Assembly (NCBI RefSeq): GCF_963921235.1
Contig: NC_086108.1
Span: forward strand, 88,538,001-88,602,000
DNA from: Mobula hypostoma
Taxonomy: Eukaryota
Length of the DNA stretch: 64,000 nt
Direction of reading: 5' to 3'
Shown here: positions 133 through 64,000 of the stretch, in pieces
How the letters are laid out: every line of letters starts with the position of its first letter
Numbering within the stretch: position 1 is the first letter of the stretch
Position numbers and translations under genes: made by a program
The notes under the pieces: model-generated
The model's database searches: none
Told to the model about the DNA's origin: nothing
What the model saw: the letters and a program-made list of their open reading frames with translations, nothing else

Positions 133-984
133 CTTAAAAAAAAGTGCAGAATTCAGCATTAATTGAAGTTAGATGCTTCAATGTTTTAAGATGGATACCA
201 GATTTCAGTAGGAAAAACCATACATAGTAAAATTTGCAAAATGTTCCAAATAATAAAATGTACAAAGGTCAAACAAAGCACATGATGCAAAACTCCATGC
301 CCTTCCCTTGCAGATTTCCAACTTTAAAATTCTTGAGAGTACAGTGCAAAGGACCAAGTCTCTCAGCACCTGGTTTCTTCTCTTCCCCCCCCCCACCCCA
401 CCCCTATCGCACAAAAGGGACAGCTTTACTGGAATGGAAAGCTCCTGACCAAACATGCATTAAAAAATTCTCTCTGGAATAGAGTTTTTGCACAGTTTCA
501 TAACAAAGGAAGTCTCACTTCCACCATAGATATAATGTCTTCTTTTAAAAAAAATCACAGCAACATAATGGCATTTTACAAAACAAGTCTCTGCAGGAAA
601 CAAAAAGATAGATAGAACATAAACAATTTTGGAAATACTGGAGTCTGGCAACAACAATGGAGGAGAAACAGTTAACGTTTCAGATCAATCATTATTCAGA
701 AATAAGAAAACAAACAGGTTATATCACAGAGAAAGAAAAGCAAACCAAAAAGAATGGCATGATACTTTGGGGATGAAAAATTAGTTACAGGATTTGTAGC
801 ACCTGACATTACTTTCTCCCCAAAGCGGATAGGTAAAACTAATCAAGGGCACTACTAAATTACAAGTGTCACTGGACAAATATAGTCCCTATGAAGGGAC
901 CCAACGACATTCATTGTGAGGTACTGAGCGTCCCAGGTATGGATCAAACAGAAAATACACATCCGATCCATTGACACAAGAAGT

Positions 985-1110
985 ACTGCAGTTGCTGGAA
1001 AGCTGGAACAATACACACAAACTGCTGAGGAAGCTCATCAGGTCAGGCAGCATTGACAGATGGCAGTAAACAATCAATGTTTCAGCCCAAGACCCTTCAT
1101 CAGGACTGGT
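985..1110 (-). repeat. Penelope-derived short repeat with a decayed hammerhead (1071-1108)
   Basis: Reverse complement CAGTC-CTGATGA-AGGGTCTTGGGCT-GAAACATTGATTG, followed by the GCTGCCTGACCTG tail shared with 29120-29160. Confidence 0.7.
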
Positions 1111-1349
1111 CCTTTGTTTCAATTTGGGGCAAACTCTCACTTTTTGTTTAATTAATAGTACTCTAAAACGAGTATTTTTCCTATATTGGAGGGAAATGTT
1201 GGTGAAGGTGGGGTACACAGCAACAATTGATTTTTGCTCATTAACAATATGGGGCATATGTGGGGTGGGGTTCAGGGTAGTTTGAAATAGAATTCCTACA
1301 CATCTCATCTATTTCCTGCATCTCAGCTTTAATACATTCGCCTGAACAG

Positions 1350-2865: not shown

Positions 2866-3959
2866 CTGCCAGGAGAGAAAAATAATGTTAGCCAATTCTG
2901 ACCTGCTACCACCCAAAAAAGAATTTATTTTCACCACAGGGTTAAGAGTACACAAATATTAAAAGCTGCAAGGTACTCAGACGAGGAAATACCAGGACAG
3001 CTCAATTTATTTGAGTGTTAGCCAAAAGCAGGATTACAAAATGATTTTCTGTATTTAACAACAGCTATTGTAATGCTTCACAGTAATTAAACACTGCCTG
3101 GATTTCCATCATGCTAATGTATTATTACCAAATCAGAAACAGTAATTGCAGACACTGTATATACCCACATTGCAATGAATTGTCAGCAAACACCAAGACT
3201 AGAGTACGTGGCAATCTGCGAAGAACCCATACAGTCCAAATAAAAATCAATTGAAGCCAGGAATATTAAAATTTATGTTTATTTCTAATTGAGATTTTTG
3301 TATTTAACCAGGCTCAAAAAGGTAAGAGAAGCTATGAAAAGAACCAATCTTTCTTAAAAATTGTAGGTAAAATTCCTGGCAGTTCCAATTATAACTAATA
3401 CTTGAGTTGCAATTGATGGGAACCCAAGCTGCCATAAAACCACTATGAAACACAAGTGCAACACATACAAAATGGTGGAAGAACTCAGCAAGTCAAAAGG
3501 AATCTATGGAGGGATACAAGCAGACACCGTCAAGCCAAGAGCATTCATCAGGACTGTAAAGGAAAGATGCAGAAGCTAGAAAAAGGTAGGGCAAGGGGAA
3601 AGACTACAAGCTAGCAGGTGATACACAAGACCAGGTGAGGAGAAAGATGAGTGGGTGCAGAGAAGGGAGGAAGCAAGAAGTGATAGGTTGAAGAGGTAAA
3701 GGGCTGAAGAAGAAAAAAATCTAACAGTAGAAGACAGTGGACTATGGAAGAGGAGAGGAATCAGAGGGAGGCAATGGGTAGGTAAGTAGAGAAGGGGTGA
3801 ACATAGAACAGTACAGGCCCTTCGGCCCACAATGTTGTGCTGACCCTCAAACTCTGCCTCCCATATAACCGCCCCACCTTAAATTCCTCCATATACCTGT
3901 CTAGTAGTGAGAGGGTAACCAGAACAGGGAATGCAAGAGAGAAGGGCAGAGGGTGGTTT

Positions 3960-25660: not shown

Positions 25661-26462
25661 AGCTCTTCCTCCAGTTGTTCCACACACTCACCACCCTCTG
25701 TGTGAAATAGGTGCCCCTTGGGTCCCTTTTCAATCTTTCCCCTCTCATCCTGAACCTAAGCCCTCAAACACTAGACTTCCCTACCCTGGGGGAAAGAATA
25801 TTACCATCCACCTTATCTATGCCTCTCTCCTACAACAGGGTGAACAAAACTATACATGGTCCTCTAAGTGTGGCTTCATCTACAACTTGTACAATTGCTA
25901 CATAATGTCTCAACTTCTATATTCATTTGCCCTAACTGATGAAGACCAGTATGATGAGTACCTTTCTCTCCACCCCGTCTACCTGTGATGCTATTTTCAA
26001 GAAAGTATGCACTTGTGGTCCTAGATCCCTCTGTTCCATTTCTCTCTCCAGTGCTCTACCATTCATAGTATATGTCAAATGCTGTTTTGACTTTCTAAAA
26101 TACATTACGCCACTCCTTCCTCACTAATCCCAACCTTACTATAAAACCCGCCAATGAGGGGGGTGCTCTTTGTAGTCTGGTGTACTGACCTCTACCTTGC
26201 CAAGACACAGCGACAATTCGCGTATACCTCCTCATATTTACCCCTTGATCATGACCCCACTAAGGAGCACCAGGCCATTGCCTCCCACACCATCACCAAC
26301 TTTATCAGCTCGGGGGATCTCCCATCCACTGCTACCAACCTTATAGTTCCCACACCCCGCACTTCCCGTTTCTACCTCCTACCCAAGATCCACAAACCTG
26401 CCTGTCCAGGTAGACCGATTGGCTCAGCTTGCTCCTGCCCCACCGAACTCATTTCTGCATAC

Positions 26463-27296
26463 TGTTACGAGAATACACATAAAATTAAGATGTTTGCTGG
26501 CCTGGGCTAGCATCAGTGGCATCAGCAGTTGGTCTGCCACCTGCCCTCAGGGGAAGGAGAGATAAGGAACAATGGAGCAGCGTCTGGAGATGTGTAATGA
26601 AGGGATGTGGGAGGGAGAGCTGTCTGGAGCGGCTCCCCCCTTTGAACCCTGAACTGTTTGAAGTGATGGACAGGCGATACCCCAGCAGGGGGATAAAAAG
26701 GGACAGGTTCGCTAAGACAGACACACACGCCACCCGAGGTAACGAGACCCTGGAAGCGGTACGCTTCTCACGAGTGGGTGGAAAGGTACGATCAGCGGGA
26801 ACCCGGTGTGTGTCCGCCCTTGCCTGGGTGCCGGGTTCACTGCAGAGGATCGACCGCATCTGGAGGAGGGGTCACATTCGGTGACCTCAGGTGACATCAC
26901 CAAGGACCCGCCCAAATGCTGTTTGTGAGCCATCTCGCTGGTCTGTGAGTGAAGCTGTGCTGAATGATGAGTTGTTCTTATTCTATGTCTCTCTTCCCCC
27001 ACGTTGTCCACCGCCATGGCAACGATTACTGCGAACTGAACTACTAAACTGGACTGAACTTTGAGTCATTTTGAAATTGGTCATTTACCCCTAGACAACG
27101 ATAGAGCTTGATTGATGCTGTTATCTTAATTCTGTGCACATGTGTGTTTATCATCACTGAACTGTTGCATTTATTATCCTTTCGATTACTGTGTTGCTTG
27201 TTTCTGTAATAAAACTTTCTTAGTTCTAGTACTCCAGACTCCAACTGAGTGATCCATTTCTGCTGGTTTGGCAACCCAGTTACGGGGTACGTAACA
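26463..27296 (+). mobile_element. Solo LTR (834 bp) inserted in the Penelope RT
   Basis: TGTTACG...CGTAACA termini; 4-bp TSD ATAC (26459-26462 and 27297-27300); TATA-like GATAAAA near 26692 and AATAAA near 27208. Confidence 0.93.
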
Positions 27297-29066
27297 ATAC
27301 CTTGACACGGTTTTATCCCCCCTTGTTCAATCTCTTCCCACCTATGTTCGTGACACTTCTCACGCTCTGAATTTTTTCAAAGATTTAAATTTCCCTGGCC
27401 CCCACCGCTTTTTTTCACCATGGATGTCCAGTCCCTATATACTCATCCCCCACCAGGAAGGTCTCAAAGCTCGCCGCTTCTTTTTGGATTCCAGACCTCT
27501 ATCAACACTCTCCTCCACCTAGCGGAATTAGTCCTTACTCTTAATAATTTCTCCTTTGGCTCCTCCCACTTCCTTCAAACTAAAGGTGTAGCCATGGGCA
27601 CCTGTATGGGTCCCAGCTAGGCCTGCCTTTTTGTTGGCTTTGTGGGACAGTCTATGTTCCAAGCCTATACTGGTATCCTTCCCCCACTTTTCTTTCGCTA
27701 CATCAACGAACGCATTGGTGCTGCTTCCTGCACGCATGCTGAGCTCATTGACTTCATTAACTTTGCCTCCAACTTTCACCCTGCCCTCAAGTTTACCTGG
27801 TCCATTTCCGACACCTCCCTCCCCTTTCTTGATCTTTCTGTCTCTATTTCTGGAGACAGCCTATCTACTGATGTCTACTATAAGCCTACGATCTCTCACA
27901 GCTACCTGGACTATTCCTCATCTCACCCTGTCTCTTGCAAAAATGCCACTCCCTTCTCGCAATTCCTCTGTCTCTGCCGCATCTGCTCTCAGGATGAGGC
28001 TTTTCATTCCAGGACGAAGGAGATGCCCTCCTTTTTTAAAGAAAGGGGCTTCCCTTCCTCCACCATCAACTCTGCTCTCAAATGCATCCCTCCCATTTCA
28101 CGCACATCTGCTCTCACTCCATCCTCCCGCCACCCCACTAGGAATAGGGTTCCCCTTGTCCTCACCTACCACCCCACCAGCCTCCGGGTCCAACATATAA
28201 TTCTCTGTAATTTCTGCCACCTCCAACGGGATCCCACCACTAAGCACATCTTTCCCTCCCCCCGACTTTCTGCTTTCCGCAGGTATCGCTCCCTTTGCGA
28301 CTCCCTTGTCCATTCGTCCCCCCCATCCTTTCCCACCGATCTCCCTCCTGGCACTTATCCTTGTAAGCGGAACAAGTGCTACACATGCCCTTACACTTCC
28401 TCCCTTACCACCATTCAGGGCCCCAGACAGTCCTTCCAGGTGAGGTGACACTTCACCTGTGAGTTGGCTGGCATGATACACTGCACCCAGTGCTCCTGAT
28501 GCGGCCTTCTATATATTGGCAAGACACGACGCAGGCTGGGAGACCATTTCGCTGAACACCTACACTCTGTCCGCCAGAGAAAGCAGGATCTCCCAGTGGC
28601 CACACATTTTAATTCCACGTCCCATTCCCATTCTGATATGTCTATCCTCGGCCTCCTCTACTGTCAAGATGAAGCCACACTCAGGTTGGAGGAACAACAC
28701 CTTATATTCCTTCTGGGTAGCCTCCAACCTGATGGCGTGAACATTGACCTCTAACTTCCGTTAATGCCCCTCCTCCCCTTTGTACCCCATCCTTTATTTA
28801 TTTATTTATTACTAATATTTTTTTTCCTTTCCCCCTTTTTTCCTCTCCTTTTTCTCCCTCTGTCCCTCTCAGTATACTCCTTGCCCATCCTCTGGGCTTC
28901 CCCCCTCCCCATTTCTTTCTCCCTAGGCCTCCTGCCTCATGATCCTCTCGTATCCCTTTTGCCAATCAACTTTCCAGCTCTTAGCTCCATCCCTCCTCCT
29001 CCTGTCTTCTATCATTTCGGATCTCCCCCTCCCACTTTCAAATCTCTTACTATCTCTTCTTTCAGT

Positions 29067-29104
29067 TAGTCCTGACGAAGGGTCTCGGCCTGAAACGTCG
29101 ACTG
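29067..29104 (+). ncRNA. Minimal type I hammerhead ribozyme motif in the Penelope terminal repeat
   Basis: TAGTC-CTGACGA-A-GGGTC(TC)GGCCT-GAAAC-GTC^GACTG: complete CUGAnGA/GAAA core, stem II hairpin, stem I TAGTC:GACTG, GUC cleavage triplet at 29097-29099. Confidence 0.8.
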
Positions 29105-29224
29105 TACCTCTTCCTAGAGATGCTGCCTGGCCTGCTGCGTCCACCAGCATTTTGTGTGTGCGCTCATTATGCCATACTTATCTGGTATTGATATCCTTCG
29201 TCACTCTTTGGCCCACTTCCTTAG

Positions 29225-31289: not shown

Positions 31290-33680
31290 CGGATATGCTG
31301 TATAGCTTTGTAGATCCAGGTCCAGAGCTCCCTAAAAATATCAACACACGTCAAAGGGAGGTGAAAAAGGCATATGCCATGCTTGCCTTCATTGGTTAGG
31401 GCAGAATATATATATATATATATGAATTATGCTGCAACTTTACAAGCCACTTGTTAGGCGACATTGGGATATTGTGTGCAGTTCTGGTTGCCGCATTATA
31501 GAATGTATGTGTTTGTGCTGCAGAGAGTGCAGAAGTGATTGATCAAGATATTGCCTGGATTGGAGGACCTTTGTGATGGGGCAAAGTGGACTAAGGGTTG
31601 ATTTGGTAGAAGTATGTAAGATTATGAGAGGCATAGATGTGGTAGATAGTCAGAATGATTTCTTTCCTATGATAGGGGTATCAAAACATAGGTTTAAGAA
31701 GGGGTTCTCAAGCTTTTTTATGCCATGCAACAACAGTATTAAGCAAGGAGTCTGTGGACCCTAGATTGGGAAGTCCTGCCTGAAGGTAAGAGGACGAAGA
31801 TTTAAAGGGGAAAAAAAGGGCATGGTTTCTTTTTACAGAATGGTTGATACCTGGAATGTGCTGCCAGAGGAGGTGGTGGAATAAAGTACATCTACAATGC
31901 TTAAAAATATTAAAGAGATACAAATAGGGAAGATATGAAAGGATATAGTCCTAATGTGGGCAAATGTGATTAGTATAGAGGGGCAGAGTGGTCAGCGGGG
32001 ATGTAGTGAACTGAAGGGCCTGTTTCTGTGCTATATAACTCTGATTCTATGGCACTTCTTCCAGGGATTTTGAGCAACTGATGATAGAAGATGATTTTTC
32101 ACAAGTTGTGGGGAGGGGGAGGGAGTATTGGGGTGTGGTGGGTGGAGTCTGGATTGCTCTGCTTGAAGACGTGGTGGATGCGGATACTGTCACGGCACTT
32201 ACGAAGCATGTAGACAAGCACTTGAATCGTCATAAAGGTAACAGACCAACTATTTGCTATTAGCTATTTTAGCTATTTCAACCCTGGGAAAAAGCCTCTG
32301 ACTATCCACACAATCAATGCCTCTCATCATCTTGTACACCTCTATCAGGTCACCTCTCATCCTCCATCTCTCCAAGTATAAAAGGCCAAGTTCACTCAAT
32401 CTATTCTCATAAGGCATGCTCCCCAATCCAGGCAACATCCTTGTAAATCTCTGCAATCTCTCTATATTATCTACATCCTTCCTGTAGTGAGGTGACCAGA
32501 ATTAAACTCAGTACTCCAAATGGAGTCTGACCAAGGTCTTATATAGCTGTAACATTACCTTACGGCTCTTGAACTTAATCCCATGGCTGATGAAGGCCAA
32601 CAAACCATATGTCTTCTTAATAATACTGTCAACCTACATAGCAGCTTTGAGTGTCAGACCCCAAGATCTCTTAGATCCTCAACACTGCCAAGAGTCTTAC
32701 CATTAATATTATATTCTATCTTCAAATTTGACCTACCAAAATGAACCACTTCACACTTATCTAGGTTAAAGTCCATCTGCCACTTCTCAACCCAGTTCTG
32801 CATCCTATCAATGTCCCACTGTAGCCTTTGACAACCCTGCAGACTATCCACACCACCAACAACTTTCTGTCATCAGCAAACTTATTAACCCATCCTTCTA
32901 CTTCTTGATCCAGGTCATTTATAAAAAAAATCACAAAGAGAATGGGTCCCAGAACAGATCCTGTGGAACACCACAGGCTACTGACCTCCATGTAGAGTAC
33001 GAACCATCTACAACCGCCCCCTGCCTTCCGTGGGCAAGTCAATTCTGGATCCACAAAGCAAGGTCTCCTTGGATTCCACGCTTCCTGACTTTCTGAATGA
33101 GCCTCGCATGGGGAACCTTATCAAATGCCTTACTGAAACCCATATATACTACATCCACTGCTCCACCTTCATCATTGTGTTTTGTTACATCTTCAAAGAA
33201 TTTAATCAGGTTTGTAAGGCATGACCTGCCCTTGACAAAACCATGCTGACTATCCCTAATCAGATGATGTTTCTCCAAATGCTCATAAATCCTGCCCCTC
33301 AGGATCTTCTCCAACAGCTTGCCCACCACTGAAGTCAGACTCACTGGTTTATAATTTCCTGGGTTATCCCTACTCCCTTTCTTGAACACGAGGACAACAT
33401 TTGCAACCCTCCAATTCTCCGGTACTTCTCCCGTCCCTATTGATGGTGCAAGGATCATCGCAAGAAGCTCAGCAATCTTTTCCTCGCTTCCCACCGTAGC
33501 CTGGGGTATATCTCATCCAGTCCCAGTGACTTATCTAACTTAATGCTTTTCAAAAGCTCCAGCACATTCTCTTTCTTAATGTCTATAAGCTCAAGCGGTT
33601 CGGTTGGCTGTAAGTCATCCCCACAATTGCCAAAGTGCTTTTCACTGGTGAATACTGAAGCAAATTATTCATTAAGTACC
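31290..33680. mobile_element. CR1 fragments (plus about 31290-32050; minus about 32265-33680)
   Basis: VPENWRVANVV, NYKPVSLTSVVGK, SQHGFVKGRSCLTNL in ORF 33039..33494. Confidence 0.88.
31699..31778. mobile_element. Tiny hAT-like MITE; partial inverted relative at 57638-57690
   Basis: AGGGGTTCTCAA...TTGGGAAGTCCTG ends; no convincing TSD. Confidence 0.45.
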
Positions 33681-36379
33681 TCATTCAGAATTGATTATGC
33701 TTGTTTGTTTTTAAAAATAATTACCTATATACAGTAATTGTTCAGTGAGTTTTATAGTGGCTGCAGTTTTCTTTATATTTTTCTGGAAACTTCTCATCTT
33801 CAGTGCTTGGCATTGCATTATTTGAACAGAGTATATTTTTATTGGTTATCTGTTATAAATGGAATTTCAATGGAATTAGTGGTCTGGCAAAAGGAAGATC
33901 AGACTTCCTTGGTCTGCTCTCTTTGTTCTTTCCCCTGCCACTCAGCTCTCTTCCCTTTCCCTATATTTTCTTTGTTATTGTAATACTTAATAAAATGATT
34001 GTAAGCAATAAGCTTTAGACATCATTCAAACTGGGGGCTTGTCCGGGATATGAACAAAATTGGAGCTTATTGATTGATTAATTATCGATCTCATTGGCTA
34101 CTACACTTTTGATTGACTTGTGTGGGGAAACCAGCAGCAATGGATCTTGGGGCATTTCTGGCGTCACCAGACCCTAAGGCATTGGGGGATGCCAGAAAGG
34201 GTGACTTGTTGGCCATTGTTAAGGAGCTGGGACTTGCTGCGGTAAAATGGGATATGAAAAAGGTACAGATTCAGAGGAGAATAGCTGAGCACTATATTTG
34301 TTTGAGGAAGTTTAAAGAGGGGGTGTTAGAAAGGTTTACTGAAAGTAAGTTCAATGATCTTGAGCTCTAGTACAAGTTAAACTAAAGATGGAAGCTGAGT
34401 TAAAACAAAAACAGCTCAAGGCTGAGTTAAAACAAAAACTGTTCGAAACTGAGTTAAGAGGAAAACAGCTTGAGGCCAAGGAAACAGAAAAACAGAGGTG
34501 GTTTGCAGCTGAAGAAGCAGAAAAACAGAGGGAAGAAGCAGGAAAACAGAAGGAGGAAGCAGAAGTATAAAGGAGTTAAAGAAGATAGAGAAGTTGCAGC
34601 AAAGGGGTCTAGTGTTTCACTCTGCTGATAAGTTTTTTGCCAGTCGGGAAGTTAAATTGGTCCCTCCATTTGATAAAATTGAGGTTGCTAAATACTTTCA
34701 GCATTTTGAGAAAGTGGCTCAGAGACTGAAGTGGCCAAAAGAAAGTTAGTCCCTCTTGTTAAAGTCTATTTAAGGGTGAGGCTCAACAAGCTCATTCTGC
34801 CCTATCAATTGAAGTTGCAGTTAAATATGAGATTGTGAAACAGGCTGTGCTTAAAGCCTATGAACTGATTCCAGAAGCCTATAGGCAAATGTTTAGGAAT
34901 TTGAAGACTCGTGGAATTTGCTTATGAGAAATCTGTGTGTTTTGAAAGATGGTGCACATCTAAAAATGTGGATGATAATTTTGAGAAACTGAAAGAGTTA
35001 ATTTTAATTGAAGAATTTAAAAGGTGCATCCATGATGATATAAAGGCATATTTAGATGAAAAGGATGCTGCCACTTTACAAGAATCTGCTAAATTAGCAG
35101 ATGAGTTTGCCTTAACCCACAAGTTTAAGTTTACTCTAAGTAAGACCTTCCAAATGAGTAGCATGGATAGTCAGGGTAAACCAGAAATCAAATCTGGATC
35201 TAGTGACAAAGGTAAGGATGAGGGGAAATAATTAAAGGAGAAGCCCTCTTGTCCTACTTGTCACTATTGTAGGAAACCTGGTCATGTTATGGCTAACTGT
35301 TTCCTCTGAAAAAGAAGAAGGAAAAGGAGGCAGTTCCAGATGCCTGTGTTCAAAATATTGAAACACCTGTAAACCCATGGGGTTCTGCACATTCTCATGA
35401 AGCTCTGTCAAAGACTAAAATGTCTGGTTAGGTTAGGAAAGAATTCCTTCATTTTACGTCAGATGGGTTTGTTTCAGTAAAGGAAGGGTCAACCCTGATA
35501 CCAGTGAAAATTCTGCGAGATACTGCGGCTTCTCTGTCACTAATGTTAGACAGTGTTCTAAAGTTTGGTAATGAGACTGCCACTGGTGAGGTAAATCTTA
35601 TTCGAGGTATTGGGTGCGATATTGTTCCTGTACCTCTGCACAAGGTAATTTTGAAGTCAGAGTTAGTTTCAGGACTTGTTAAAATAGGACTACAACCCAG
35701 CTTACTGGTGGAAGGTATTTCTTTGTTGTTAGGTAATGGCCTAGCAGGTGGTAAAGTTGTTCCTGCAGTGCAGCTGACAACTAAGCCAATCAATTATGAT
35801 TCAAAGATAGACCCTAACATTTATCCCTCATGTGCAGTAACTCGAGCTAGGGCCAAAAAACTTGTCAATGCAGATGGTCCTGTGCACCATGATTCGGCTA
35901 CTCATGATAGCCCAAATAGGGAATCAGATTTTGATGACTTGTCAGGGACTTTTCTGCCTTCATTGTTTCACCAGGATCCAGGTATTAAAACTGATGATAA
36001 AGATTTGTCTCTGTCTAGGAAAGAGTTTATAGAAGATCAGAGCAGAGACCCTGAGATTGAAGCTTTAAGAGAAAAAGCTCTCTCAGGCGAGGAGATTGAT
36101 AAAGTGCCAGGAGGGTTTTATTTCAAGGATAGAGTGTTAATGAGGAAGTGGAGACCACCTAATATTCCTGCAAGTGAGGAATGGGCAATTGTTCACCAGG
36201 TTGTAGTTCTGAAAGCCTATAGGAATGAGATTTTAACTTTGGTCCATAGTAAACCCTTGGGTGGACATCTAGGTGTGAAGAAAACTGTGAACAAAGTTTT
36301 AAAATAATTCTTCTGTCCTAGCTTGAGGAAAGATGTGGCAACATTTCGCAGGACTTGTAACACTTGTTAGGTTGTGGGT

Positions 36380-37601
36380 TGTTCTTGAGTAAGCTGAAAA
36401 ACAAAAACAGAAGGTTGCTGAATTGGAGTTTGATTTTGCAAGAGTATGATCTCATGTTAACACATTAAAGGCAAAGATAATGTAATTGCCAATTGTCTTT
36501 CCAGATGTTAAACATGCAATTTAATTTTAATAATGGAGTGGAATTTAATATTTGTATATGCTCCTGCAATATGTTGTATTACTTTGTAGTGTGCTGTATG
36601 ATAACCGTATATGTATTGTTCCACATTTTGTAGATTGTAGTTAAAACGTTGCTCCTGCAGATCAAAATGTTCTCTTCTTGGGGAGAGGTGTTATGTGTCC
36701 ACAGTTTTGTTTTCCTGGGAGTCCATAGTTTCATTTACTGTGAGCGTCACGTGTCCCCAGATTCATTGTACTGGGAATTCACAGTTTCGTTTCTGTGAGC
36801 GTTATCTTATGATGTATGTCAATGGTATAAAAGAGGGAGTCGAAGGAAAGAGAGAGAGAGTGAAGATCACAGACTTTGGGCTATCTGGGAACAGCTCACG
36901 GTCAAGGAGGGTAAAGTCTAATGCTTACCCAAACCCAAAGGATTGGGTTAATCAGCGGCACATTGTGTATTATGGAGACGTGTCTGTCCTTTGTATGATC
37001 CGTGGGTGTGGATTTCGTGACAGTCAGTTTGTAAAATCACTCTTCGTGGACTTTGGAACAGTATTCCTTGGCTGGGATCCTCAGTAACCGTTTTCTAGTT
37101 CGCTAACTGTAGAATCTTTGGAATTCGTCGTGATCAGCTCATTGCTGCATTGTGAATGCACAAGTCTCTCCTCTCATCTACTTCATGAATTACTGGGACT
37201 CTCTGAACTGCCACTGTAAGACTGTGTTTGAGTAAGATTTGTAAGAACGGGTTCTAAGTTTGACTGTAAGGGAGCTATAGACACATAACACTGTTAACTC
37301 CTGTTTAAGAAAGTAGTTTATTTAATTTTCTATATTTTTGAGTAGATGTAAATAAATATGGTGGTTTTAATATTAAAACCCGACTCAATTTGTCATCTCT
37401 TGCTGCTGGTACATTACAAAATCGTAACATCTGACTCTGCCTGACCTGTTGGATTTCACTAGCATTTTGTATGTGTTGTTTCCTAAACATTAAATGTCCT
37501 TGATGATCATCACCATAATAGCAATTATATCACATCCATCTACCTACATTTACACAGATCACTTTATCCACCCAGCTACAAATCCTATGGTAGGGCTCAT
37601 T
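36380..37601 (+). repeat. 1.22-kb direct duplicate of 39099-40317 (RNase H end + PPT + LTR 36689-37429 + about 170 bp host flank) inserted in the integrase
   Basis: Near-identical sequence with scattered substitutions and small indels; identical small ORF translations at 37305 and 40021. Confidence 0.95.
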
Positions 37602-39407
37602 CATCTGCGTATCATCCAGAATCCCAAGAGGCCTTAGAGAGAGATTCCATTTTACCCTCAAAACCATGACTAACACATTCTGTACTGAAAATGAGAAGGA
37701 TTGGGATGAGGGAGTTCATCTGCTTTTATTTTCAGTAAGGGAGTCAGTAAAAGGATCCCTAGGCTTTAGTCCCTTTGAACTTGTGTTTGGTCACCAGGTC
37801 CGAGGACCTTTGGCATTGTTAAAGGACCAGTGGGTTAACAATAACCTGCATGTTAATTTGCTAGATTATGTTTTGAAGTTCAAGGACAAATTGCAAAGGG
37901 CTTGCAACATAGCAAAGGAGAATTTAAAATCAGCCCAGGAAAGAATGAAAACTTGGTATGATAAACAAGCCAGAATGAGGTCATTCAAGCCAGGAAATAA
38001 AGTGCTTGTTTTGTTTCCTGTACAAACAAACCTTCTACAAGCTAAGTTTCATGGTCCCTATGAAATTGTGGCTAAAGTTAATGATGTGGACTATGTAGTC
38101 AAAACGCTAGATAGACGAAGGCCAACAAAGCTTTGTTACATAACTATGCTTAAGCTGTATCATGAAAAACCAACTGCAGCTGTGGCGGTTGCTGTAAACA
38201 GAGATGGATGTGAGCTCTCTGGAAATTTATGAGCTGATCCATCTGAGGCCTATTTTAAACCTAACATTATTTCAGCCAGATTGACAAATTTGACTATTTT
38301 GGAAAATATTGATGAGAAAATGGCTCATTTACAGCCACAGCAGCAGCAGCAGATGAAAGAGTTAATTATGAAATTTACGGATTTATTTCTGGATATCTCA
38401 AATAGAACCACAGTGGCTTTACATGATTTAGATGTGGGTAATAACAAACCTATAAAACAACAAACATATCGTATGAATATTGAAAAATGTTAACTTGCTG
38501 AACAAGAAATTGAGTATATGTTAGAAAATGATATTATTAGACTTTCTACTTCAGATTGGAGCCCATCTTGATTATGTTGTAGGACAAGGCAGGTTGGCTC
38601 CTGTTCAGGCAAAAGATCAGGCAACTTTTGAGGTTCCCATTCCAACCAGGAAAAGGGCTTTTAGAAGATTTCTGGGAATGGCCGGATATTATCGCAGGTT
38701 CTGTGAGAACTTTGCTGATGTTGTTCTCCTATTGACTAACCTCCTGAAGAAGGGTGAAAAGTTTGTTTAGACAGAACCTTGCCAGGAGGCGTTTGATAAA
38801 TTGAAAGCTATCTTATGTCACCAACCTGTGCTCAGGTCACCTGATTTTGCCAAGCCATTCTCCATAGCTCTGGATGCCAGTGATGAAGCTGCAGGAGCAG
38901 TGTTACTGCAAAAGGATGATTATGATGATGTTGACCATCCTGTGGCTTACTTTTCAAAGAAATTCAATGAGCATCAAAGAAATTACTCCACCATAGAGAA
39001 GGAATTATTATCACTTATTTTGGCTTTGCAGCATTTTGATGTGTATGTTTGCACAGCTCAGAAACCACTTGTGGTTTATACAGATCATAATCTGTTGGTG
39101 TTCTTGAGTAAGCTGAAAAACAAAAACAGAAGGTTGCTGAATTGGAGTTTGATTTTGCAAGAGTATGATCTCATGATAACACATTAAAGGCAAAGATAAT
39201 GTAATTGCCAATTGTCTTTCCAGATGTTAAACTTGCAATTTAATTTTAATAATGGAGTGGAATTTAATATTTGTATATGCTCCTGCAATATGTTGTATTA
39301 GTTTGTAGTGTGCTGTATGATAACCGTATATGTATTGTTCCACATTTTGTAGATTGTAGTTAAAATGTTGCTCCTGCAGATCAAAATTTTCTCTTCTTGG
39401 GGAGAGG

Positions 39408-40145
39408 TGTTATGTGTCCACAGTTTCGTTTTCCTGGGAGTCCATAGTTTCATTTACTGTGAGTGTCACGTGTCCCCAGTTTCATTGTACTGGGAATTCA
39501 CAGTTTCGTTTCTGAGCGTTATCTTATGATGTATGTCAATGGTATAAAAGAGGGAGTCGAAGGAAAGAGAGAGAGAGTGAAGATCACAGACTTCGGGCTA
39601 TCTGGGAACAGCTCACGGTCAAGGAGGGTAAAGTCTAATGCTTACCCAAACCCAAAGATTGGTTAATCAGCGGCACACTGTGCATTATGGAGACGTGTCT
39701 GTCCTTTGTATGATCCGTGGATGTGGATTTCGTGACAGTCAGTTTGTGAAATCACTCTTCGTGGACATTGGAACAGTATTCCTTGGCTGGGATCCTCAGT
39801 AACCTTTTTCTCGTTCACTAACTGTGGAATTTTTGGAATTCGTCGTGATCAGCTCATTGCTGCATTGTGAATGCACAAGTCTCTCCTCTCATCTATTTCA
39901 TGAATTACTGGGACGCTCTGAACTGCCACTGTAAGACTGTGTTTGAGTAAGATTTGTTAAGGACGGGTTCTAAGTTTGACTGTAAGGGAGCTATAGACGC
40001 ATAACACTGTTAACTCCTGTTTAAGGAAGTAGTTTATTTAATTTTCTATATTTTTGAGTAGATGTAAATAAATATGGTGGTTTTAATATTAAAACCCGAC
40101 TCAATTTGTCATCTCTTGCTGCTGGTACGTTACAAAATCGTAACA
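39408..40145 (+). repeat. 3' LTR of the Gmr1-like element (738 bp)
   Basis: TGTTATG...CGTAACA immediately after the polypurine tract. Confidence 0.9.
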
Positions 40146-40454
40146 TCTGACTCTGCCTGACCTGCTGGATTTCACTAGCATTTTGTATGTGTTGTTTCCT
40201 AAACATTAAATGTCCTTGATGATCATCACCATAATAGCAATTATATCACATCCATCTACCTACATTTGCACAGATCACTTTATCCACCCAGCTACAAATC
40301 CTATTGTAGGGCTCATTTGGATTAAGCACCTATGAATATATTTTTGATATATTAGTGTTTTCTCATACAAATGCCCTGTTTATAATATTACCAAGTCTTT
40401 TCCTACCTTTTTCACTCTTCTGTAATTGTTTGCCCACTTATTTCTTGTTCTTAT

Positions 40455-42680
40455 GCAAGGAGCACAGGACAGGCCCTTTGGCTCACAATGCATGCCAATC
40501 TAAATAAACCTATTCCATGATTAATCTAAGCCTTCCCCCCAATGTGGCCCATAATACTCCATTTTCTCTTACATCCATTGCCTATTAAATGTCCCCATTC
40601 TATCATCCTCCATCATCATGATGAACAGCAGTGCATTCCCAGTCATTCGCTGCACACTTTGTTTAAAAAAAACGGAAAATTAACTCTGACAGCATCTCTA
40701 AACATTCCTCCCCTCATTGTAACTGGATATCCTCTGGTACTGGTCATTGCTGTCCCGGGAAAAAGGTGCTGGTTCTCTATTCTATCTATGCCTCTCATAA
40801 TCTTATATAACTCTATCAATTTTCTTTATTGCTTCAAAGATAAAATCTCTAGTGCAGTCAATATTTCCACACAATACATGCTCTCTTATCCAGGCATCCT
40901 CCTGGTAAATCTCCTCTCCACCCTCTTTAAAGCTTCTACATCTTTCCTACAATGAGGAAAGCAGAACTAAATATAATACCCTATGTGTGGTCAAAGCAGT
41001 GTTTTATGGAGCTGCAACATTACCTCGCTACTCTTGAACTCATTCTCCGAATTAACGCACACAATATAGCTTCTTAACTGCTCTATCAACTTGCATGGCA
41101 GCTTTGAGGGGTCTATGGACATGGACATCAAGATCCTTCTCTTACTCCAGACTGCTAAGAATCCTGACATTAAACTTGTACTTTCCTCCAAGTTTTCAAA
41201 GTGTATAATTTCACACTTTTTCAGATTGAACCCTGTCTGATACTTCTCCACCCACTGTTGCTCCCTGTCTATAGACTCTGAGATGCAATGGGACTTGGGA
41301 GTCCTCGTACAGGATACCCTTAAGGTTAACCTTCAGGTTGAGCCAGTGGTGAAGAAGGCCAATGCAATGTTGGCATTCATTTCTAGAGGAATAGAGTATA
41401 GGAGCAGGGATGTGATGTTGAGGCTCTATAAGGCGCTCTTGAGACCTCACTTGGAGTACTGTGGGCAGTTTTGGTCTCCTTATTTAAGAAAGGATGTGCT
41501 GACCTTGGAGAGGGTACAGGGAAGATTCACTAGAATGATTCTGGGAATGAGAGGGTTAACATATGAGGAACGTTTGTCCGCTCTTGGACTGTATTCCTCG
41601 GAGATAAGAAGAATGAGGGGGGACCTCATAGAAACATTTCGAATGTTGAAAGGCATGGACAGAGTGGATGTGGCAAAGTTGTTTCCTATGATGGGGGAGT
41701 CTAGTACGAGAGGGCATGACTTAAGGATTGAAGGGCGCCCATTCAGAACAGAGATGTGAAGAAATTTTTTTAGTCAGAGGGTGGTGAATCTGTGGAATTT
41801 GTTGCCACGGGTGGCAGTGGAGGCCAAGTCATTGGGTGTATTTAAGGCAGAGATTGATAGGTCTCTGAGTAGCCAGGGCATCAAAGGTTATGGTGAGAAG
41901 GCAGGGGAGTGGGACTAAATGGGAGAATGGATCAGCTCATGATAAAATGGCAGAGCAGATTCGATGGGCCGAATGGCCGTTTCTGCTCCTTTGTCTTATG
42001 GTCTAATGGTCTTATACCCTCTTGTAACCTACAACTTCTACACTATCCACAACTCATCCAACCTTTGTGTCATCTACATACCTACTAACATCCCCCCCTT
42101 CCACTTTCTCATCCTAGTCATTTGGGAGCAAGTGTCCCAAAACAGATCCCTGCGGAACATCACCGGTCATTGACATCCAGGAAGAACATGCTCCATCTAA
42201 CACGTCCTGACTTTTTGGATAAGCCTGCCGGGGGAAATCTTGCCAAACCTTATTAAAATCTATATACACCACACTCACATCTCCACCTTCAATTTGTTTT
42301 CTTACATCCCCGCAACTTATTTTGGTTCGTGATATATGACTTACCTTAATTAAACTATGCTTTCGCAAATTCTCGTAAGTCCTGTTCCTTTTAATCCTTT
42401 CCATTAGTATGGCCACCACTGGTTTATAATCCGTAGAATTATCCTTATTATAATTCTTAAACAATGGAAGAATATTTTCCATCCTCCAACCTTCCGGTAC
42501 TACTCATGTGGCCAGGGAGATTGAAAAGGTCATCATCAATGCCCCAGCAATCCCTTCCCCAAATTCACAAAGTATTGTGGGATACATTCCTTGCAGCCCC
42601 AGGGACTTGTCAATCCTGAAGTTTTTCAGGAACTCCAAAACTGCCTCTTTCTTAACATATTCCATCACATTGGCCTGACT
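40455..42680. mobile_element. Old minus-strand CR1 with a younger plus-strand CR1 (about 41275-42008) nested inside
   Basis: ORF 41283: LYKALLRPHLEYCGQFWSP...RGDLIETFR with intact 3' UTR; flanking degenerate minus-strand CR1 ORFs. Confidence 0.88.
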
Positions 42681-44270
42681 GATTTGAAGCAGTTGAAAGC
42701 TCTGTTGCCCCAGAAATTAATTTTACTCCCCATTTAAACTAGGCAAATCCCTTAATGAACTCAACTTTGATTTTTTTCAACTCCAGCTTTACAATCTTGA
42801 ATTCTATTTTTGTGTCGACATTTCGATCCATGCAGTATTCTCATTTTCTAGTTTCTGTACTCTCACATCAGTCACTTCAGAGATGGATATTTGGCTGGTT
42901 CGTGTACTAAACACAGAGTAATCAAGATAAAATAGATATTTTGGTATTTGCTGCTATGTTTACTTTCTTACACATAAAACATAATTGAAGTTGAGAAGGA
43001 ACATGGATTTCCAATTTCAGGTAGCCCACACATCCTTTGTTTCTTTCTCTTTCCTAATGTGCCCCAGCCCTCATACACACACCTTCCTTTCCATCTTCTC
43101 CAACCCACCCCTCATTAATTTGCTTCTTTCACCACCTCCACTTGGTTCCACCTGCTTATCACTCAACCCATCTTACTTGTCGATCCAAGCTAGCAACAGC
43201 AAACAATGCTACCAAAGGTGACATACTCAAGACGGTTTATTAAGCAACTCCTTTTAGACCTTCTTTTATTTCAGATGTTGCTCTGCTACTGTTGGGGCTG
43301 TTTATCTACATTCCAGTGGTGAGTTTTCAGGCCAATCGGGCGATCTGGTGCTTCGCTGTTTCCGAGAGTGTTCCACAGGCTGCTGGCAAAGTGTGCAGCA
43401 TGGAGGCCAGGAGGTCATGATTGACTTTATCTCTCAATGATTAACGAGCTGAGGAAGATTGAAATCACTGAGGTGGGTGTGGAGAGCAATCAGGTGTTCA
43501 GTGCAATCTTTCAGCCTCTCGCTCGTGGGAGGAGGGTGTCTGCGTGGGGTGGTCTCTCTCTCCCCCTCTTGCCCACTGCTCTTGAGGGAAGCTCCTTGCA
43601 TTTCAGTGATCTCTCTCTCCCATAATGCTGTCAAAGGATGGTGCTGGAACTAGGTTTAATTGCTGTGGTTTGTGGATTTGGATTCTAATTCAGGTTTATG
43701 ATGTGTTATAGTACTGATCACTCCTTTTTCTGTTGCTACTTTTAGACAAATTTTGAGTCAGGGCAGCCTTCAGATAATGAACACTGAGCTGAACTGCAAT
43801 ATGCTTTTTGATTGTGTGTTTTATATCCTGAGTTTTTGTTTGTTTTTTATTAAGCAATTTTTTTTTTTTTTGAGCGTGAGGGTTTGAGGTTTTTCTTTGT
43901 ACGGGTTGGTTCCAAAGTCCTTTGTTTCATGACCGTGTGTGGAAGACGAATTTCAGGGTTGTGTGCTGCATACATACGTACATACTTTGATAATAAATGT
44001 ACTTTGGATCTTCAAACCCACTCAACTGCCTTGTTCTGTCCCTTCCCCCCAATTTCTCCATCTGCCCAGTAGCCTTTCTTTGTCAGGTTCCACCCATTAT
44101 TCTCCTTTTCTGTCAGATTCCATAATCTGCAGCATTTGTTGTCACCATTACCCACCTCTGACCTCTCATATTTCAGCAGTTTGCTGAGAGAAAAACAGAG
44201 TGAATCAATATAAAAACCAATTGCCACATCCCAGTGTTACCATGGATCTCTTACTAACTCTTCCTTCAGT

Positions 44271-44308
44271 TAGTCCTGACGAAGGGTCTCCGCCTGAAAC
44301 GTCGACTG
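44271..44308 (+). ncRNA. Hammerhead ribozyme motif copy in a Penelope-derived short repeat (about 44245-44410)
   Basis: TAGTC-CTGACGA-AGGGTCTCCGCCT-GAAAC-GTC-GACTG; near-identical to the 29067 copy. Confidence 0.75.
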
Positions 44309-44419
44309 TACCTCTTCCTAGAGATGCTGCCTGGCCTGCTGCGTTCACCAGCAACTCTGATGTGTGTTGCTTGAATTTCCAGCATCTGCAGAATTCCTCT
44401 TGTTTGAGATAACAGGTGG

Positions 44420-48518: not shown

Positions 48519-48920
48519 CTAACCAAAAAGAGAAATCGAATTTTACTGTCAAGACACACTAGCAGATAACCACCACAGTAAATAGGGATCAACAAACAGC
48601 TCACTAAAAGAAATACAAACACAAGAGATTCCGCAGATGCTGGAAATCTAGAGGAACACAAAATGCTGGAGGAACTCTCAGGTCAGGCAGCATCTATGAG
48701 GAGGAATAGTCAATTAATTATATTGAGATGAATGGTATCTGCCCAAAACATTGAAATCTTTATTCCTTTCTATAGATACTGCCTGACCTGCTGAGATCCT
48801 CCACTATTTTGTGTGTGTTACACGAAAGGAAACATCTTAGATTAACTATTGCACACCATTTCATTTTACTTGTAACACGCTGCAGGAACTCAGCAGGTCG
48901 GGCAGCATCCGTGGAAATGA

Positions 48921-48960
48921 TCGGTTGACGTTTCGGGCCAGAACCCTTCGTCAGGACTGA
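48921..48960 (-). ncRNA. Hammerhead ribozyme motif copy in an AGL intron, sense to AGL
   Basis: Reverse complement TCAGTC-CTGACGA-AGGGTTCTGGCCC-GAAAC-GTC-AACCGA; core intact, stem I has two mismatches. Confidence 0.65.
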
Positions 48961-49129
48961 AGAGGGAAGGATCAGAGGCCCTATAAAGAAGATGGGGGGA
49001 GGGTGGGAAGGGGAAGGCTGGTAGGTTCCAGGTTTGGAACCTCCAGCGTGTTGTGAGTGTTGCTTTGACCCCAGCATCTGCAGATTATTTTGTGTTCATT
49101 TTACTTGTACCAGGAATAACTCAACTCAC

Positions 49130-53503: not shown

Positions 53504-54411
53504 GACTAAAATGTCTGATTCCATTCTTTACAACTCTATGACTCCAATACTGGAAAGAGAGACTAAAATGAAGTTATCGGATAAAACTTAGGGACATGTA
53601 CTTGCCTCCTTTGAAATCCAAGTCATTAAATTTGGATACAGTAGAAAACATACCAAAGTATAAATGGTGAAACAGAAATATTGTCCATTGTTAACACCAC
53701 GAATAGCTACAGACTAATAGAAAGCTGGGCTTTATATGCAGCTTCTGCAGATGCTGGAAATCAAGAGAATACACACAAAACACTGGACGAACTCAACAGG
53801 TCAGGCAGTATCTATGAAGAGGAATAAAGAGATAACATTTTGGGCCGAGACCCTTCATCTGTGTGTTTTTGTATGTGTTTTATTTTATATCTAGAATGCA
53901 AGGTATACAAAGCTGTAGTTAGATCATAGGCACGGATGGCTAACAGTATGAAAAGATATTCCAGAGTAGACTCACTATAATAGTATCCAGAATCCTATGA
54001 GGTAATTTATGAAGGGCAATAACACAAACTCGGATTGTACCGAACATAGAACAGTACAGCACAGTACAGGCCCTCTGGCTCAGGCTAATTGTCTAACAGA
54101 TAGGATGATTTCAACGTTTTCAAGATGCAATGAAAAATTAATATGGCACCAATTTGAGAAAGTAGAAATGAGAGCTATGCTTCCACCTGCCAATGGCACT
54201 GCAATTTCAAATTCTGCCATATACAGCAGTTGAATTCTGGTCAATTTATATCACACATTAATATATGTGCATACAGGATGGGTTCAGCTACCAATTGAAA
54301 TAGTGCTGAAATAAGTCTACGTGATTTACAAAGCCTACGTCTATTCCAAAAGTCAGCCACCAAAGGGAGGAAAGGGACAAGGTGTGGGTGGCAGGATGGT
54401 ATGTTGCCTCC

Positions 54412-62339: not shown

Positions 62340-64000
62340 GTTCTAAGTTCAAAAGTAAATTTTACCATCAGAGTACACATATGTCACCACATACAACCCT
62401 GAGATTCATTTTCCTGTGGGCATACTCAGCAAATCTACAGAATAGTACCATAACAGGATCATTGAGTAGAGTGCAGAAACCAACAAACTCTGAAAATGCA
62501 AATATAAATAAACAGCAATAAATAGCGAGAACATGAAATAACAAGATAGAAAGTACTTAAAGTGAGATCATTGGTTGCGGGAATATCTCAATAGATGGGC
62601 AAGTGTGTGTAGTTATCCCCTTTAGTTCAGGAGCCCAATGGTTGAGGAGTAGTAACTATAGGTCAAATCTGGTGGTGTGAGTCCTGAGGTTCTAGTACTT
62701 CTACTAATATCAGCAGTGAGAAAAGAGCATGGCCTGGCTTGTGAGGATCTCTGATGATGGTCAAACAGGGTTAACTAAATATCCCCTCTGGACTTTCCAC
62801 TAGACTATAACAATGCACTAAAGTGCACCAAGGGAGAATATATCAGAAAGAAAACATTGCTAAGACACACAAAATGCTGGAGGAACTCAGCAGGCCAGGC
62901 AGCATCTATGGAGAAGATTTCAGGCTGACCTTTTGTCAGATTTGCCGATGAAGGGCATTGACCTGAAACATCGACTGTTTATTCTTTTCAAAAGATGCTG
63001 CCTAGCCTGTTGCATTCCTCCAGCATTTTGTGTGTGCTGCTTGGAGTTCCAGCATCTTCTGATTTTCTTGTGTTTGTGATTAGTTAAGACAAATCATTTC
63101 ACAAACACGATTTAATGGCAAGATTTATAACGTTCTAATAAAAAATATTGTCACTTTATTTTTCATGATTTTTTACAAGTTACTGCAATTAACAAATATT
63201 AAATGTTAATTTTCAACAAGTTTGCTTATTAGCAACATAGTTACATCACTTTGGGAGCTGTTCATTGACTACAGCTCAGCATTTAATACCATCATTCCCA
63301 CAATCCCGATTGAGAAGTTGCAGAACCTGGGCCTCTGTACCTCGTTCTGTAATTAGATCCTTGACTTCCTAACCGGAAGACCACAGTCTGTACAATAGCC
63401 CAGTTGCAGCATAAGTAGAGTTCTACAAAGCTGCAGCCCAACTATCCAATTTTAACTCAACTCTTTGATAATCAAAGGCAAACATGTCACTCTATCAATC
63501 TGTGTAGCTATGAACTTGGACCCCAAGACTCCCTGCTCATCAGCATTGTTAAGGGCTTTGTAGTGCACTGTCTCTTTACACTTGATTTCCCAATGCCTCA
63601 CATTTGGCTGGGTTAAACTCCATCTGCCAGTTCTCTGCCCATATCTGCAACTGACCTATCTCTCATTGTATCTTTTGCCAATCTTCAACGCTATCCACAA
63701 TACCACCAATCTTTGTATCATCTGCAAACTTAACACACATCTATGATTTCAGCCAGGTCACCAACAGCAGAGGTCCCAGTACAGATCCTCTGTAGAACAA
63801 CACTAATCACAGACCTACAGCCGGAATAAATCCCATCTACAACTATCTTCTGTTTTCCATGGGAAAGACAATTCTGAATCTAAATGGCCAATTCACCATG
63901 GCTGTCATGCATCTTAATTTTCTGGATTAGCCTTCCATAAGGGACCTTGTCTAGCTCCTTATTAAGATTCACATTGACAGCATCCACAGCCCTATGTTTA
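62340..64000. mobile_element. Mixed Rex1, Penelope-tail (62865-63075) and CR1 fragments
   Basis: Similarity to other copies in this window. Confidence 0.7.

What the first reader, a model, noticed from the sequence alone, without database searches (positions are those of the whole stretch)
29067..29104. Minimal hammerhead ribozyme at the end of a Penelope element, amplified across the window
Seen: TAGTC-CTGACGA-A-GGGTCTCGGCCT-GAAAC-GTC-GACTG. This is a full CUGAnGA...GAAA core, a stem II hairpin and stem I (TAGTC:GACTG) closing on a GUC triplet, but stem III is only the loopless palindrome ACGT. Copies occur at 44271 (+) and 48921 (-), with decayed ones at about 1071 (-), 3527 (-), 53835 (-) and 62944 (+). 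Established: Penelope-like elements carry minimal type I hammerheads that need dimerisation through a palindromic stem III (Cervera & De la Pena 2014). Inference: an abundant non-autonomous ribozyme-bearing repeat family, mobilised by this Penelope RT/GIY-YIG, may process its own RNA. I cannot tell whether it has been described for this lineage.
Basis: partly seen in the sequence, partly recalled or inferred. Interest (0 to 1): 0.78.

Follow-up and report, generated by a model that had tools for sequence, protein, structure and literature searches.

The report
Shark/ray Penelope end with minimal hammerhead
This is a real copy of a known tiny self-cutting RNA motif at the tail end of a broken Penelope-type jumping gene that has over 60,000 motif-intact copies in this genome; the scattered short copies are likely cut-down ends of that same gene rather than a separate ribozyme family, and they were likely copied from RNA that had not been cut.

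Summary
The motif is real and parsed correctly. It fits the published minimal type I hammerhead (min-HHR) consensus, except for a G-U pair at 10.1-11.1. It ends the 3' pLTR of a 5'-truncated, broken Penelope-like element with a Neptune-type linker (26113-29164, probable 10-bp TSD). The genome holds 46,104 exact and 64,397 pattern-intact copies (controls 0). A full pLTR-ORF-pLTR copy has two hammerheads 3,513 nt apart.

A separate non-autonomous family is not supported. In 100 copies sampled without regard to their 5' end, starts are spread out, 3' ends are shared, and short and ORF-reaching copies share haplotypes. Of the 100, 91 run through the predicted cut, 9 start after it, and at most 1 starts at it. 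Starts peak at 29060-29072, just before the core, with or without the 37-nt tail. This likely marks an RNA 5' end.

The motif is conserved between subfamilies, but I found no compensatory changes. The monomer is predicted to fold inactive. Cleavage is untested. Only 2 of the 7 named window copies are intact. The scan noted this family many times before, here and in other genomes. Verdict: new member of a known kind, very high copy number.

The parts
29067..29104 (+). Minimal type I hammerhead motif (stem I 5 bp, core, extra A, stem II 4 bp with G10.1-U11.1, loopless ACGU, predicted cut after 29099)
   Evidence: Sequence; descriptor hit; min-HHR consensus
26113..29164 (+). 5'-truncated, inactivated Penelope-like element (Neptune-type linker) that carries the motif in its 3' pLTR; short 3' end without the 37-nt tail
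   Evidence: 88-91% identity to the intact copy L032; probable 10-bp TSD with 1 mismatch at 26103-26112 and 29165-29174
26113..28754 (+). Broken RT + CX4CX2C linker + GIY-YIG frame (stops, frameshifts, split by an insertion)
   Evidence: Translation; tblastn to the L032 protein, 83% over 466 aa; L032 hits RVT_1 (E 4.7e-5) and GIY-YIG (E 0.13), both below Pfam cut-offs
26463..27296 (.). 834-bp LTR-like insertion with inverted ends and a 4-bp duplication that interrupts the RT frame; not part of the PLE
   Evidence: Sequence and alignment gap against L032; related copy at 7305-7977
29054..29065 (+). Pyrimidine-rich strand predicted to pair with 29072-29082 and mask the core in read-through RNA; 5' ends of copies peak at 29060-29072
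   Evidence: Folding; 5'-end distribution
29118..29160 (+). Conserved 3' block ending at the first of two 3' end points; likely holds the reverse-transcription start signal (inferred)
   Evidence: Two clusters of 3' ends about 37 nt apart; majority of older copies equals the young one at 28 of 31 non-CpG positions
44246..44406 (+). 161-bp 5'-truncated copy with tail; hammerhead 44271-44308 intact, one change in loop II
48881..48970 (-). Older-subfamily terminal fragment; core and stem II intact, stem I 3' strand broken
   Evidence: no descriptor hit
48617..48826 (.). Decayed head-to-head pair of terminal fragments (48617-48711 minus, 48726-48826 plus)
62865..63076 (.). Decayed head-to-head pair of terminal fragments (62865-62945 minus, 62943-63076 plus); core damaged
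968..1108 (-). Decayed older terminal fragment
3458..3557 (-). Heavily decayed terminal fragment, GAAA lost (nhmmer E 0.048)
53742..53861 (-). Decayed terminal fragment, truncated inside the core

Best explanation
The motif is the minimal hammerhead in the terminal repeat of a very abundant Penelope-like retrotransposon, and the short copies are likely 5'-truncated by-products of that element, likely copied from RNA that the ribozyme had not cut. Steps: (1) Shown: a full copy reads pLTR-ORF-pLTR, with hammerheads 3,513 nt apart and the ATG 138 nt after the predicted 5' cut. (2) Inferred, by analogy with Anolis Poseidon: reverse transcription starts at two internal sites about 60 and 97 nt past the cut, giving the optional tail. 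(3) Shown: cDNA nearly always runs through the cut site, and about half of the copies stop within about 60 nt upstream of it, most often at 29060-29072. (4) Inferred: an RNA 5' end (probably a transcription start) lies at the foot of the hammerhead and the enzyme runs off it. (5) Predicted: the monomer folds inactive and the upstream strand masks the core in read-through RNA, so any cleavage would be slow, need a partner hammerhead or the element's protein, and matter only in parent elements. The window's own copy is a dead insertion.
For: Fit to the min-HHR consensus and position in both pLTRs of L031. An intact 1,036-codon open frame in L032 has ADKGG, YIDD, CX4CX2C and GIY-YIG motifs. Two 3' end clusters lie about 37 nt apart, and short and ORF-reaching copies share their top haplotypes. 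Of 100 anchor copies, 91 pass the cut. Truncation hazard is 1.66%/nt at 29060-72, against 0.31-0.51 downstream and 0.09 at 28800-28999. Starts do not shift with the tail (medians 29066.5 and 29068, p 0.57), and 31 of 57 short copies have inverted element sequence upstream. In 30 junction loci I saw TSD candidates of 8-25 bp or inverted partners and no shared upstream exon. The majority of 61 mostly older copies equals the young motif at 27 of 27 non-CpG positions, against 7 of 13 in the adjacent spacer (p 0.0004). Monomer MFE is -11.0 against -7.0 for the open hammerhead fold. PMC11167929 reports internal initiation, protein-assisted cleavage and uncut RNA as the main template.
Against: No cleavage, RNA end or transcription start was observed. 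There are no compensatory changes, and the non-ribozyme 3' block is conserved almost as well (28 of 31, p 0.24), so conservation alone does not single out catalysis. About a dozen of the 61 'older' copies are young ones that passed my filter. There is a small local spike of starts at the cut (26 of 100 listed junctions, hand count; 11 without obvious microhomology), so trace cleavage is not excluded. The 100-copy sample comes from one 3-Mb end of one contig. The clade was assigned by motif only, with no tree.
Confidence: 0.78

Rival explanations
1. The short copies are a self-propagating non-autonomous, retrozyme- or SINE-like family that processes its own RNA and borrows the PLE enzyme.
For: 57 of 100 sampled copies are short and non-coding. 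Their starts peak in a narrow zone. PLE-derived retrozymes exist, also in one chondrichthyan (bioRxiv 10.64898/2026.07.22.740005).
Against: 5' ends are spread over 29000-29128. The same haplotypes occur in short and ORF-reaching copies. None of the first 100 exact copies has a same-strand neighbour within 1 kb, while 9 head-to-head pairs do occur (hand count). Starts avoid the cut site.
Confidence: 0.08
2. The starts pile up because the structured hammerhead region and its self-complementary strands stall reverse transcription or favour microhomology joining. No RNA end lies there.
For: Junctions often use microhomology with the inverted partner or the target. A strong hairpin is predicted at 29054-29082 in read-through RNA.
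Against: The peak lies upstream of the core, after stems I and II have been passed, and the hazard falls about 18-fold further upstream. Initiator-like hexamers centre on A29064 and A29068 (consensus recalled, not from a call).
Confidence: 0.25
3. The ribozyme cuts efficiently in vivo, and the monomer is re-ligated into a circle that serves as the template, which restores the cut site.
For: Proposed for PLEs in PMC4209133. L031 is longer than one unit. Read-through of the cut site is expected on a circle.
Against: A circle has no end, so it does not explain why about half of the copies stop just upstream of the core. Linear cut RNA left almost no copies. The double-hammerhead fold is predicted about 19 kcal/mol less stable than the best alternative dimer (nearest-neighbour model without tertiary contacts).
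Confidence: 0.12
4. A spliceosomal 3' splice site at 29065/29066 removes the masking strand and switches the ribozyme on, as with the intron beside helix I in Drosophila virilis Penelope.
For: A pyrimidine tract and CAG lie directly before stem I, and some copies have a branch-point-like heptamer. The D. virilis precedent is in PMC4209133 and PMC2377424.
Against: The heptamer is only about 12 nt from the AG and varies between subfamilies. No captured exon in 30 junction loci. No GT..AG joint into this site among the 15 of 478 joints shown. I saw no strong, conserved donor in the pLTR.
Confidence: 0.08

Closest known systems
Minimal hammerheads (min-HHR) in pLTRs of metazoan Penelope-like elements (Cervera and De la Pena 2014, PMC4209133)
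   Same: Type I topology, CUGANGA plus an extra nucleotide, G at 10.1, loopless palindromic helix III, short helix I, U-rich 5' flank. One motif per pLTR, mostly dispersed single copies from truncated elements.
   Different: Copy number: 64,397 pattern-intact copies of one family, against about 4,000 (coelacanth) and 9,000 (Xenopus) motifs in that paper, with different methods and assemblies. No cartilaginous fish appears in its Table S1 or in the Fig. S3 rows I read. Stem II has only 4 bp. The youngest subfamily has U11.1 fixed, but G-U also occurs in several of its rows.
EN+ Penelope-like elements of the Neptune clade (PMC8557442; structure also in PMC3846280)
   Same: RT, then a CX2-5CxxC linker, then C-terminal GIY-YIG; pLTRs; inverted 5'-truncated partner; optional 30-40 bp tail; short TSDs.
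   Different: Neptune versus Nematis was not separated by a tree. The pile-up of 5' ends at the foot of the hammerhead is not described in the passages I read.
Poseidon of Anolis carolinensis, PAc (Frangieh et al. 2024, PMC11167929)
   Same: Two internal start points that define the tail; a hammerhead in the pLTR; uncut RNA as the main template.
   Different: In PAc the ORF starts inside stem II. Here the ATG is 138 nt after the cut, and the element has a Zn-finger-like linker.
Non-LTR retrozymes of animals (bioRxiv 10.64898/2026.07.22.740005)
   Same: PLE-derived, non-coding, hammerhead-bearing.
   Different: Retrozymes are tandem arrays with a hammerhead in each unit. These copies are dispersed singles or head-to-head pairs with variable 5' ends.

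Membership tests
min-HHR of metazoan PLEs | Core CUGANGA(H)...GAAA...NUH with helices I and II | tested here: met
min-HHR of metazoan PLEs | Loopless palindromic helix III (15.2-16.2) | tested here: met
   ACGU at 29095-29098
min-HHR of metazoan PLEs | G10.1-C11.1 pair (consensus above 80%) | tested here: inconclusive
   G-U here. The window's subfamily has C in 14 of 20 copies and the youngest has U in 59 of 66. G-U also occurs in published rows
min-HHR of metazoan PLEs | Location in both pLTRs of a PLE | tested here: met
   L031, motifs at 6248 and 2735 around the ORF
min-HHR of metazoan PLEs | Compensatory changes in the stems | tested here: not met
   None among 105 descriptor hits or 61 mostly older copies; only one lineage of related subfamilies was sampled, so the test has little power
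min-HHR of metazoan PLEs | Self-cleavage as a dimer or with protein | not testable with these tools
   No bench data; RNA runs held only as contigs
EN+ PLE, Neptune clade | Single ORF with RT and C-terminal GIY-YIG | tested here: met
   L032 motifs and Pfam hits below cut-off; 1,450 homologues at E<=1e-20, most listed rows with PF00078 and some with PF01541
EN+ PLE, Neptune clade | CX2-5CxxC linker (shared with Nematis) | tested here: met
   CX4CX2C in L031-L034 and in the window; definition
EN+ PLE, Neptune clade | pLTR, inverted truncated partner, optional 30-40 bp tail | tested here: met
EN+ PLE, Neptune clade | RT phylogeny with named Neptune references | not tested
   No named reference sequences were at hand
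Non-LTR retrozyme | Two or more head-to-tail units, each with a hammerhead | tested here: not met
   0 same-strand neighbours within 1 kb among the first 100 exact copies; the two intact window copies are 15 kb apart. Rare arrays elsewhere are not excluded
Non-LTR retrozyme | Circular unit-length RNA | not testable with these tools
   Contigs only
SINE-like non-autonomous family | Fixed 5' end and private variants of a short master | tested here: not met
   Spread starts and shared haplotypes

The most novel reading that the evidence does not exclude
The element's RNA starts at the foot of the hammerhead (A29064 or A29068 equivalent). The 5' copy then lacks the masking strand and can fold, while the read-through 3' copy stays masked: predicted stem I and II pairing is about 0.2-0.26 against 0.0. 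The ribozyme would act as a start-site-gated switch that trims the capped 5' end and sorts RNA between translation and copying. Tens of thousands of run-off stubs would record this start site and seed over 60,000 intact hammerhead motifs across the genome.
Probability: 0.2. Interest if true: 0.6.

Novelty: new member of a known kind. Interest (0 to 1): 0.27.

Why it matters
As a motif it is ordinary: hammerheads are expected in Penelope pLTRs. Its value is scale. One young family with near-intact frames and over 100,000 terminal copies gives a large record of how PLE copying starts and stops. That record says the template was almost never cut at the ribozyme, and that copying often ends just before it. 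This bears on the open question of what PLE hammerheads do, and it names exact positions for 5'-end mapping and an in vitro test with an intact Neptune-type protein.

Tried and rejected
Rfam scan of the window: no hammerhead family among 10 matches at E<=10, as expected for a motif without helix III. PDB sequence search with the L032 protein: 0 matches. Pfam on the two window ORF pieces: 0 families.

Cleavage footprint in genomic junctions: 1,361 junction-type matches per 102,412 anchors over 12 positions around the cut, against 861 per 100,989 over 13 positions about 20 nt downstream. By hand count, 26 of 100 listed start at 29100, but 15 of these use 3-4 nt of microhomology with the element, and the control has a similar spike (about 26 of 100 at 29117-18). 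Rejected as proof of cleavage; rough upper bound about 1% of copies.

Splice acceptor before stem I: not supported, not excluded. Cap-derived extra G at 5' junctions: none in the 6 TSD-abutting junctions among the 30. Length-determined truncation: rejected, since tail and no-tail copies stop at the same place.

Expression: no RNA holder listed. All laid runs were contigs with RNA status guessed, so nothing is concluded on expression or RNA ends. Selection on individual copies: mismatches in 47 young copies fall mainly on CpG sites, in the core as elsewhere. An antisense-template model (PMC3846280, passage) would also explain read-through; not tested. Lunse et al. 2017 (PMC5785218) was not held; I saw only its title in a reference list.

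Full report
Observation. A 27-nt pattern matches twice in the window, at 29072 and 44276, and never in 100 shuffles. My pairing descriptor finds the same two in the window, 4 in 264 kb of contiguous sequence (window plus 20 neighbouring stretches), and 0 in each of 20 shuffles. The other five named places are homologous but damaged. Rfam has no hammerhead hit among 10 weak matches.

Fit to the known motif. The consensus of Fig. S3 in PMC4209133 is a U-rich flank, helix I, CUGANGAH, a G...C helix II, GAAAN, a palindrome, NUH. The window motif fits at every position except 11.1, which is U. G10.1-U11.1 also occurs in several published rows. Among aligned copies, the window's subfamily has C in 14 of 20 and the youngest subfamily has U in 59 of 66. 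The window's U is therefore probably CpG decay, while the youngest lineage has fixed it.

The host element. The motif lies 318 nt after the stop of a broken RT + GIY-YIG frame. The copy spans about 26113-29164. It is 88-91% identical to the intact copy L032, is split by an 834-bp LTR-like insertion, and has a probable 10-bp TSD. I fetched 20 of the 150 scored protein matches, chosen for long frames. L032 holds a 1,036-codon open frame with ADKGG, YIDD, a CX4CX2C linker and GIY-YIG. Its Pfam hits are below the cut-offs. L031 is pLTR-ORF-pLTR with hammerheads 3,513 nt apart (one frameshift-like stretch in its frame), and the ATG is 138 nt after the predicted 5' cut. The linker defines Neptune and Nematis (PMC8557442); I built no tree. 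The most similar named proteins are from Chiloscyllium punctatum (72% and 69%), so the host is probably a shark or ray.

Abundance. The 3.48-Gb genome has 46,104 exact 31-mers and 64,397 matches to a pattern that keeps the core, 3 bp of stem I, stem II and the palindrome. Two downstream 19-20-mers have 102,412 and 100,989 matches. All reversed controls are 0. A permissive profile search gives 40 terminal relics in 264 kb, roughly half a million genome-wide if this one region is typical. PMC4209133 reports about 4,000 and 9,000 motifs for coelacanth and Xenopus, with other methods.

Are the short copies a family of their own? The evidence says no. 3' ends form two clusters about 37 nt apart, the PLE tail signature, and short and ORF-reaching copies share their commonest haplotypes (233 copies). 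In 100 copies with an exact downstream anchor from the first 3 Mb of contig C1, 57 start at or after 29000, spread from 29001 to 29128, and 31 of these 57 have inverted element sequence upstream. Among the first 100 exact copies there are 9 head-to-head pairs within 1.3 kb and no same-strand pair within 1 kb (hand count). Partners on opposite strands cannot pair in one transcript. In 30 junction loci the upstream DNA was a TSD candidate or an inverted partner, with no shared exon.

Was the template cut? A cut RNA would yield copies that start at 29100. Of the 100 copies, 91 extend past the cut, 9 start downstream, and none is scored at 29100, with one ambiguous between 29096 and 29100. An earlier, overlapping set gave 57 of 58 past the cut. 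Genome-wide junction patterns give 1.33% over 12 positions around the cut and 0.85% over 13 positions downstream. Against my reading, 26 of 100 listed junctions start at 29100, next to 2 at 29099 and 4 at 29101 (hand count). However, 15 of the 26 use microhomology with the element's own stems, and the control shows a similar spike. The upper bound is about 1% of copies. This agrees with PMC11167929, where ribozyme mutants did not affect insertion, cleavage needed the protein, and no RNA ends were seen at the site.

Where copies stop. The hazard per base is 0.31% (29101-29), 0.47-0.51% (29073-99), 1.66% (29060-72), 0.81% (29040-59), 0.43% (29000-39) and 0.09% (28800-999) (upstream coordinates are approximate). 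In one search, 66 of 100 listed junctions within 29060-66 fall at 29064-66 (hand count; 1,372 matches in all, anchor count not taken). Tail and no-tail copies stop at the same place (p 0.57; one search gave p 0.055 on 37 copies, with tailed copies stopping further upstream, opposite to a length effect). The stop is therefore set by position. I favour run-off from an RNA 5' end. Penelope pLTRs carry Inr-type promoters, and the hexamers around A29064 and A29068 fit an initiator consensus that I recall. Stalling with microhomology joining remains a real rival.

Folding and conservation. The 38-mer is not unusually stable (z -1.24). Its best fold keeps stems I and II but pairs GACG of the core with CGUC (-11.0 against -7.0 kcal/mol). 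The double hammerhead scores -11.5 against -30.3 for the best dimer. With 30-60 nt of upstream flank, stems I and II have about zero predicted probability; starting at A29064 or A29068 equivalents raises them to about 0.2-0.26. These are model values without tertiary contacts. The majority of 61 mostly older copies equals the young motif at 27 of 27 non-CpG positions, against 7 of 13 in the next spacer (p 0.0004) and 28 of 31 in the 3' block (p 0.24). About a dozen of the 61 are young copies. Contigs from coded organisms A, C and D show loose ends of other flanks beginning at the two stem I boundaries, which points the same way. No compensatory change was found.

Literature seen. PMC4209133: parts 1-2 of 4 of the text and parts 1-2 of 3 of its supplement. 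PMC11167929: parts 1-2 of 4. bioRxiv 10.64898/2026.07.22.740005: parts 1-3 of 5 and passages; its supplements are closed, so I could not see which chondrichthyan or which families it lists, and this family may be among them. PMC8557442, PMC6765202, PMC2377424 and PMC3846280: passages. Lunse et al.: title only. Searches for a description in cartilaginous fish (listings only) showed none that describes this family; Repbase and Dfam were not available.

Earlier scan notes. 93 notes in at least 24 genomes hold my search words, and 1,838 notes fit in this genome. Several reach the same reading on 5' ends. My first tests of it came before these look-ups; the notes raised its weight and led me to enlarge the sample. 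They are not independent evidence.

Verdict. A real motif and a new member of a known kind: the pLTR hammerhead of an abundant, probably Neptune-clade element. The non-autonomous family reading is not supported, and catalysis is untested. Interest 0.27.

Noticed in passing
window 26463-27296 and 7305-7977 (-): LTR-like segment with inverted terminal heptamers and a 4-bp duplication, inserted in the PLE RT frame; a second copy at 71% identity lies elsewhere in the window.
   Followed up: partly
window 35432-39187 (+): Broken Gypsy-like LTR retrotransposon pol pieces (integrase-related Pfam hits).
   Followed up: no
window about 37380-37500 and 40100-40210 (+): A duplicated ~120-bp segment that joins an LTR-like end to a relic of the PLE 3' block.
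   Followed up: no
window 51767-52318 (+): ORF piece with a Spin-doc zinc finger (PF18658), likely a hAT-type DNA transposon relic.
   Followed up: no
window 13225-15009 (-), 10384-11181 (-), 33039-33512 (-), 41241-41759 (+): Many LINE fragments; RVT_1 hit at 13660-14265. The RTE-like and CR1-like labels are recalled, not tested.
   Followed up: no
window 1281-1491 (+): Fragment of a diverged PLE frame (44% over 70 aa to L032) lying head-to-head with the decayed terminus at 968-1108 (-).
   Followed up: partly
L031:2460-2735: Complex 3' end: the young terminus runs into an inverted piece and a second, older-subfamily terminus, which puts two same-strand hammerheads 154 nt apart.
   Followed up: no
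G000 C1, listing: 5 of 100 listed junctions are clean deletions of the whole core between the two GTC repeats of stem I and helix III.
   Followed up: no
window 29049-29065 and equivalents: Branch-point-like heptamer, pyrimidine tract and CAG directly before stem I; the young lineage has a 4-base duplication that gives two AGs.
   Followed up: partly
L032 and L031: Near-intact ~1,016-aa frames from the ATG with a long Pro/Ser-rich region before the RT; the family looks recently active (95-99% identity among 20 long copies).
   Followed up: partly
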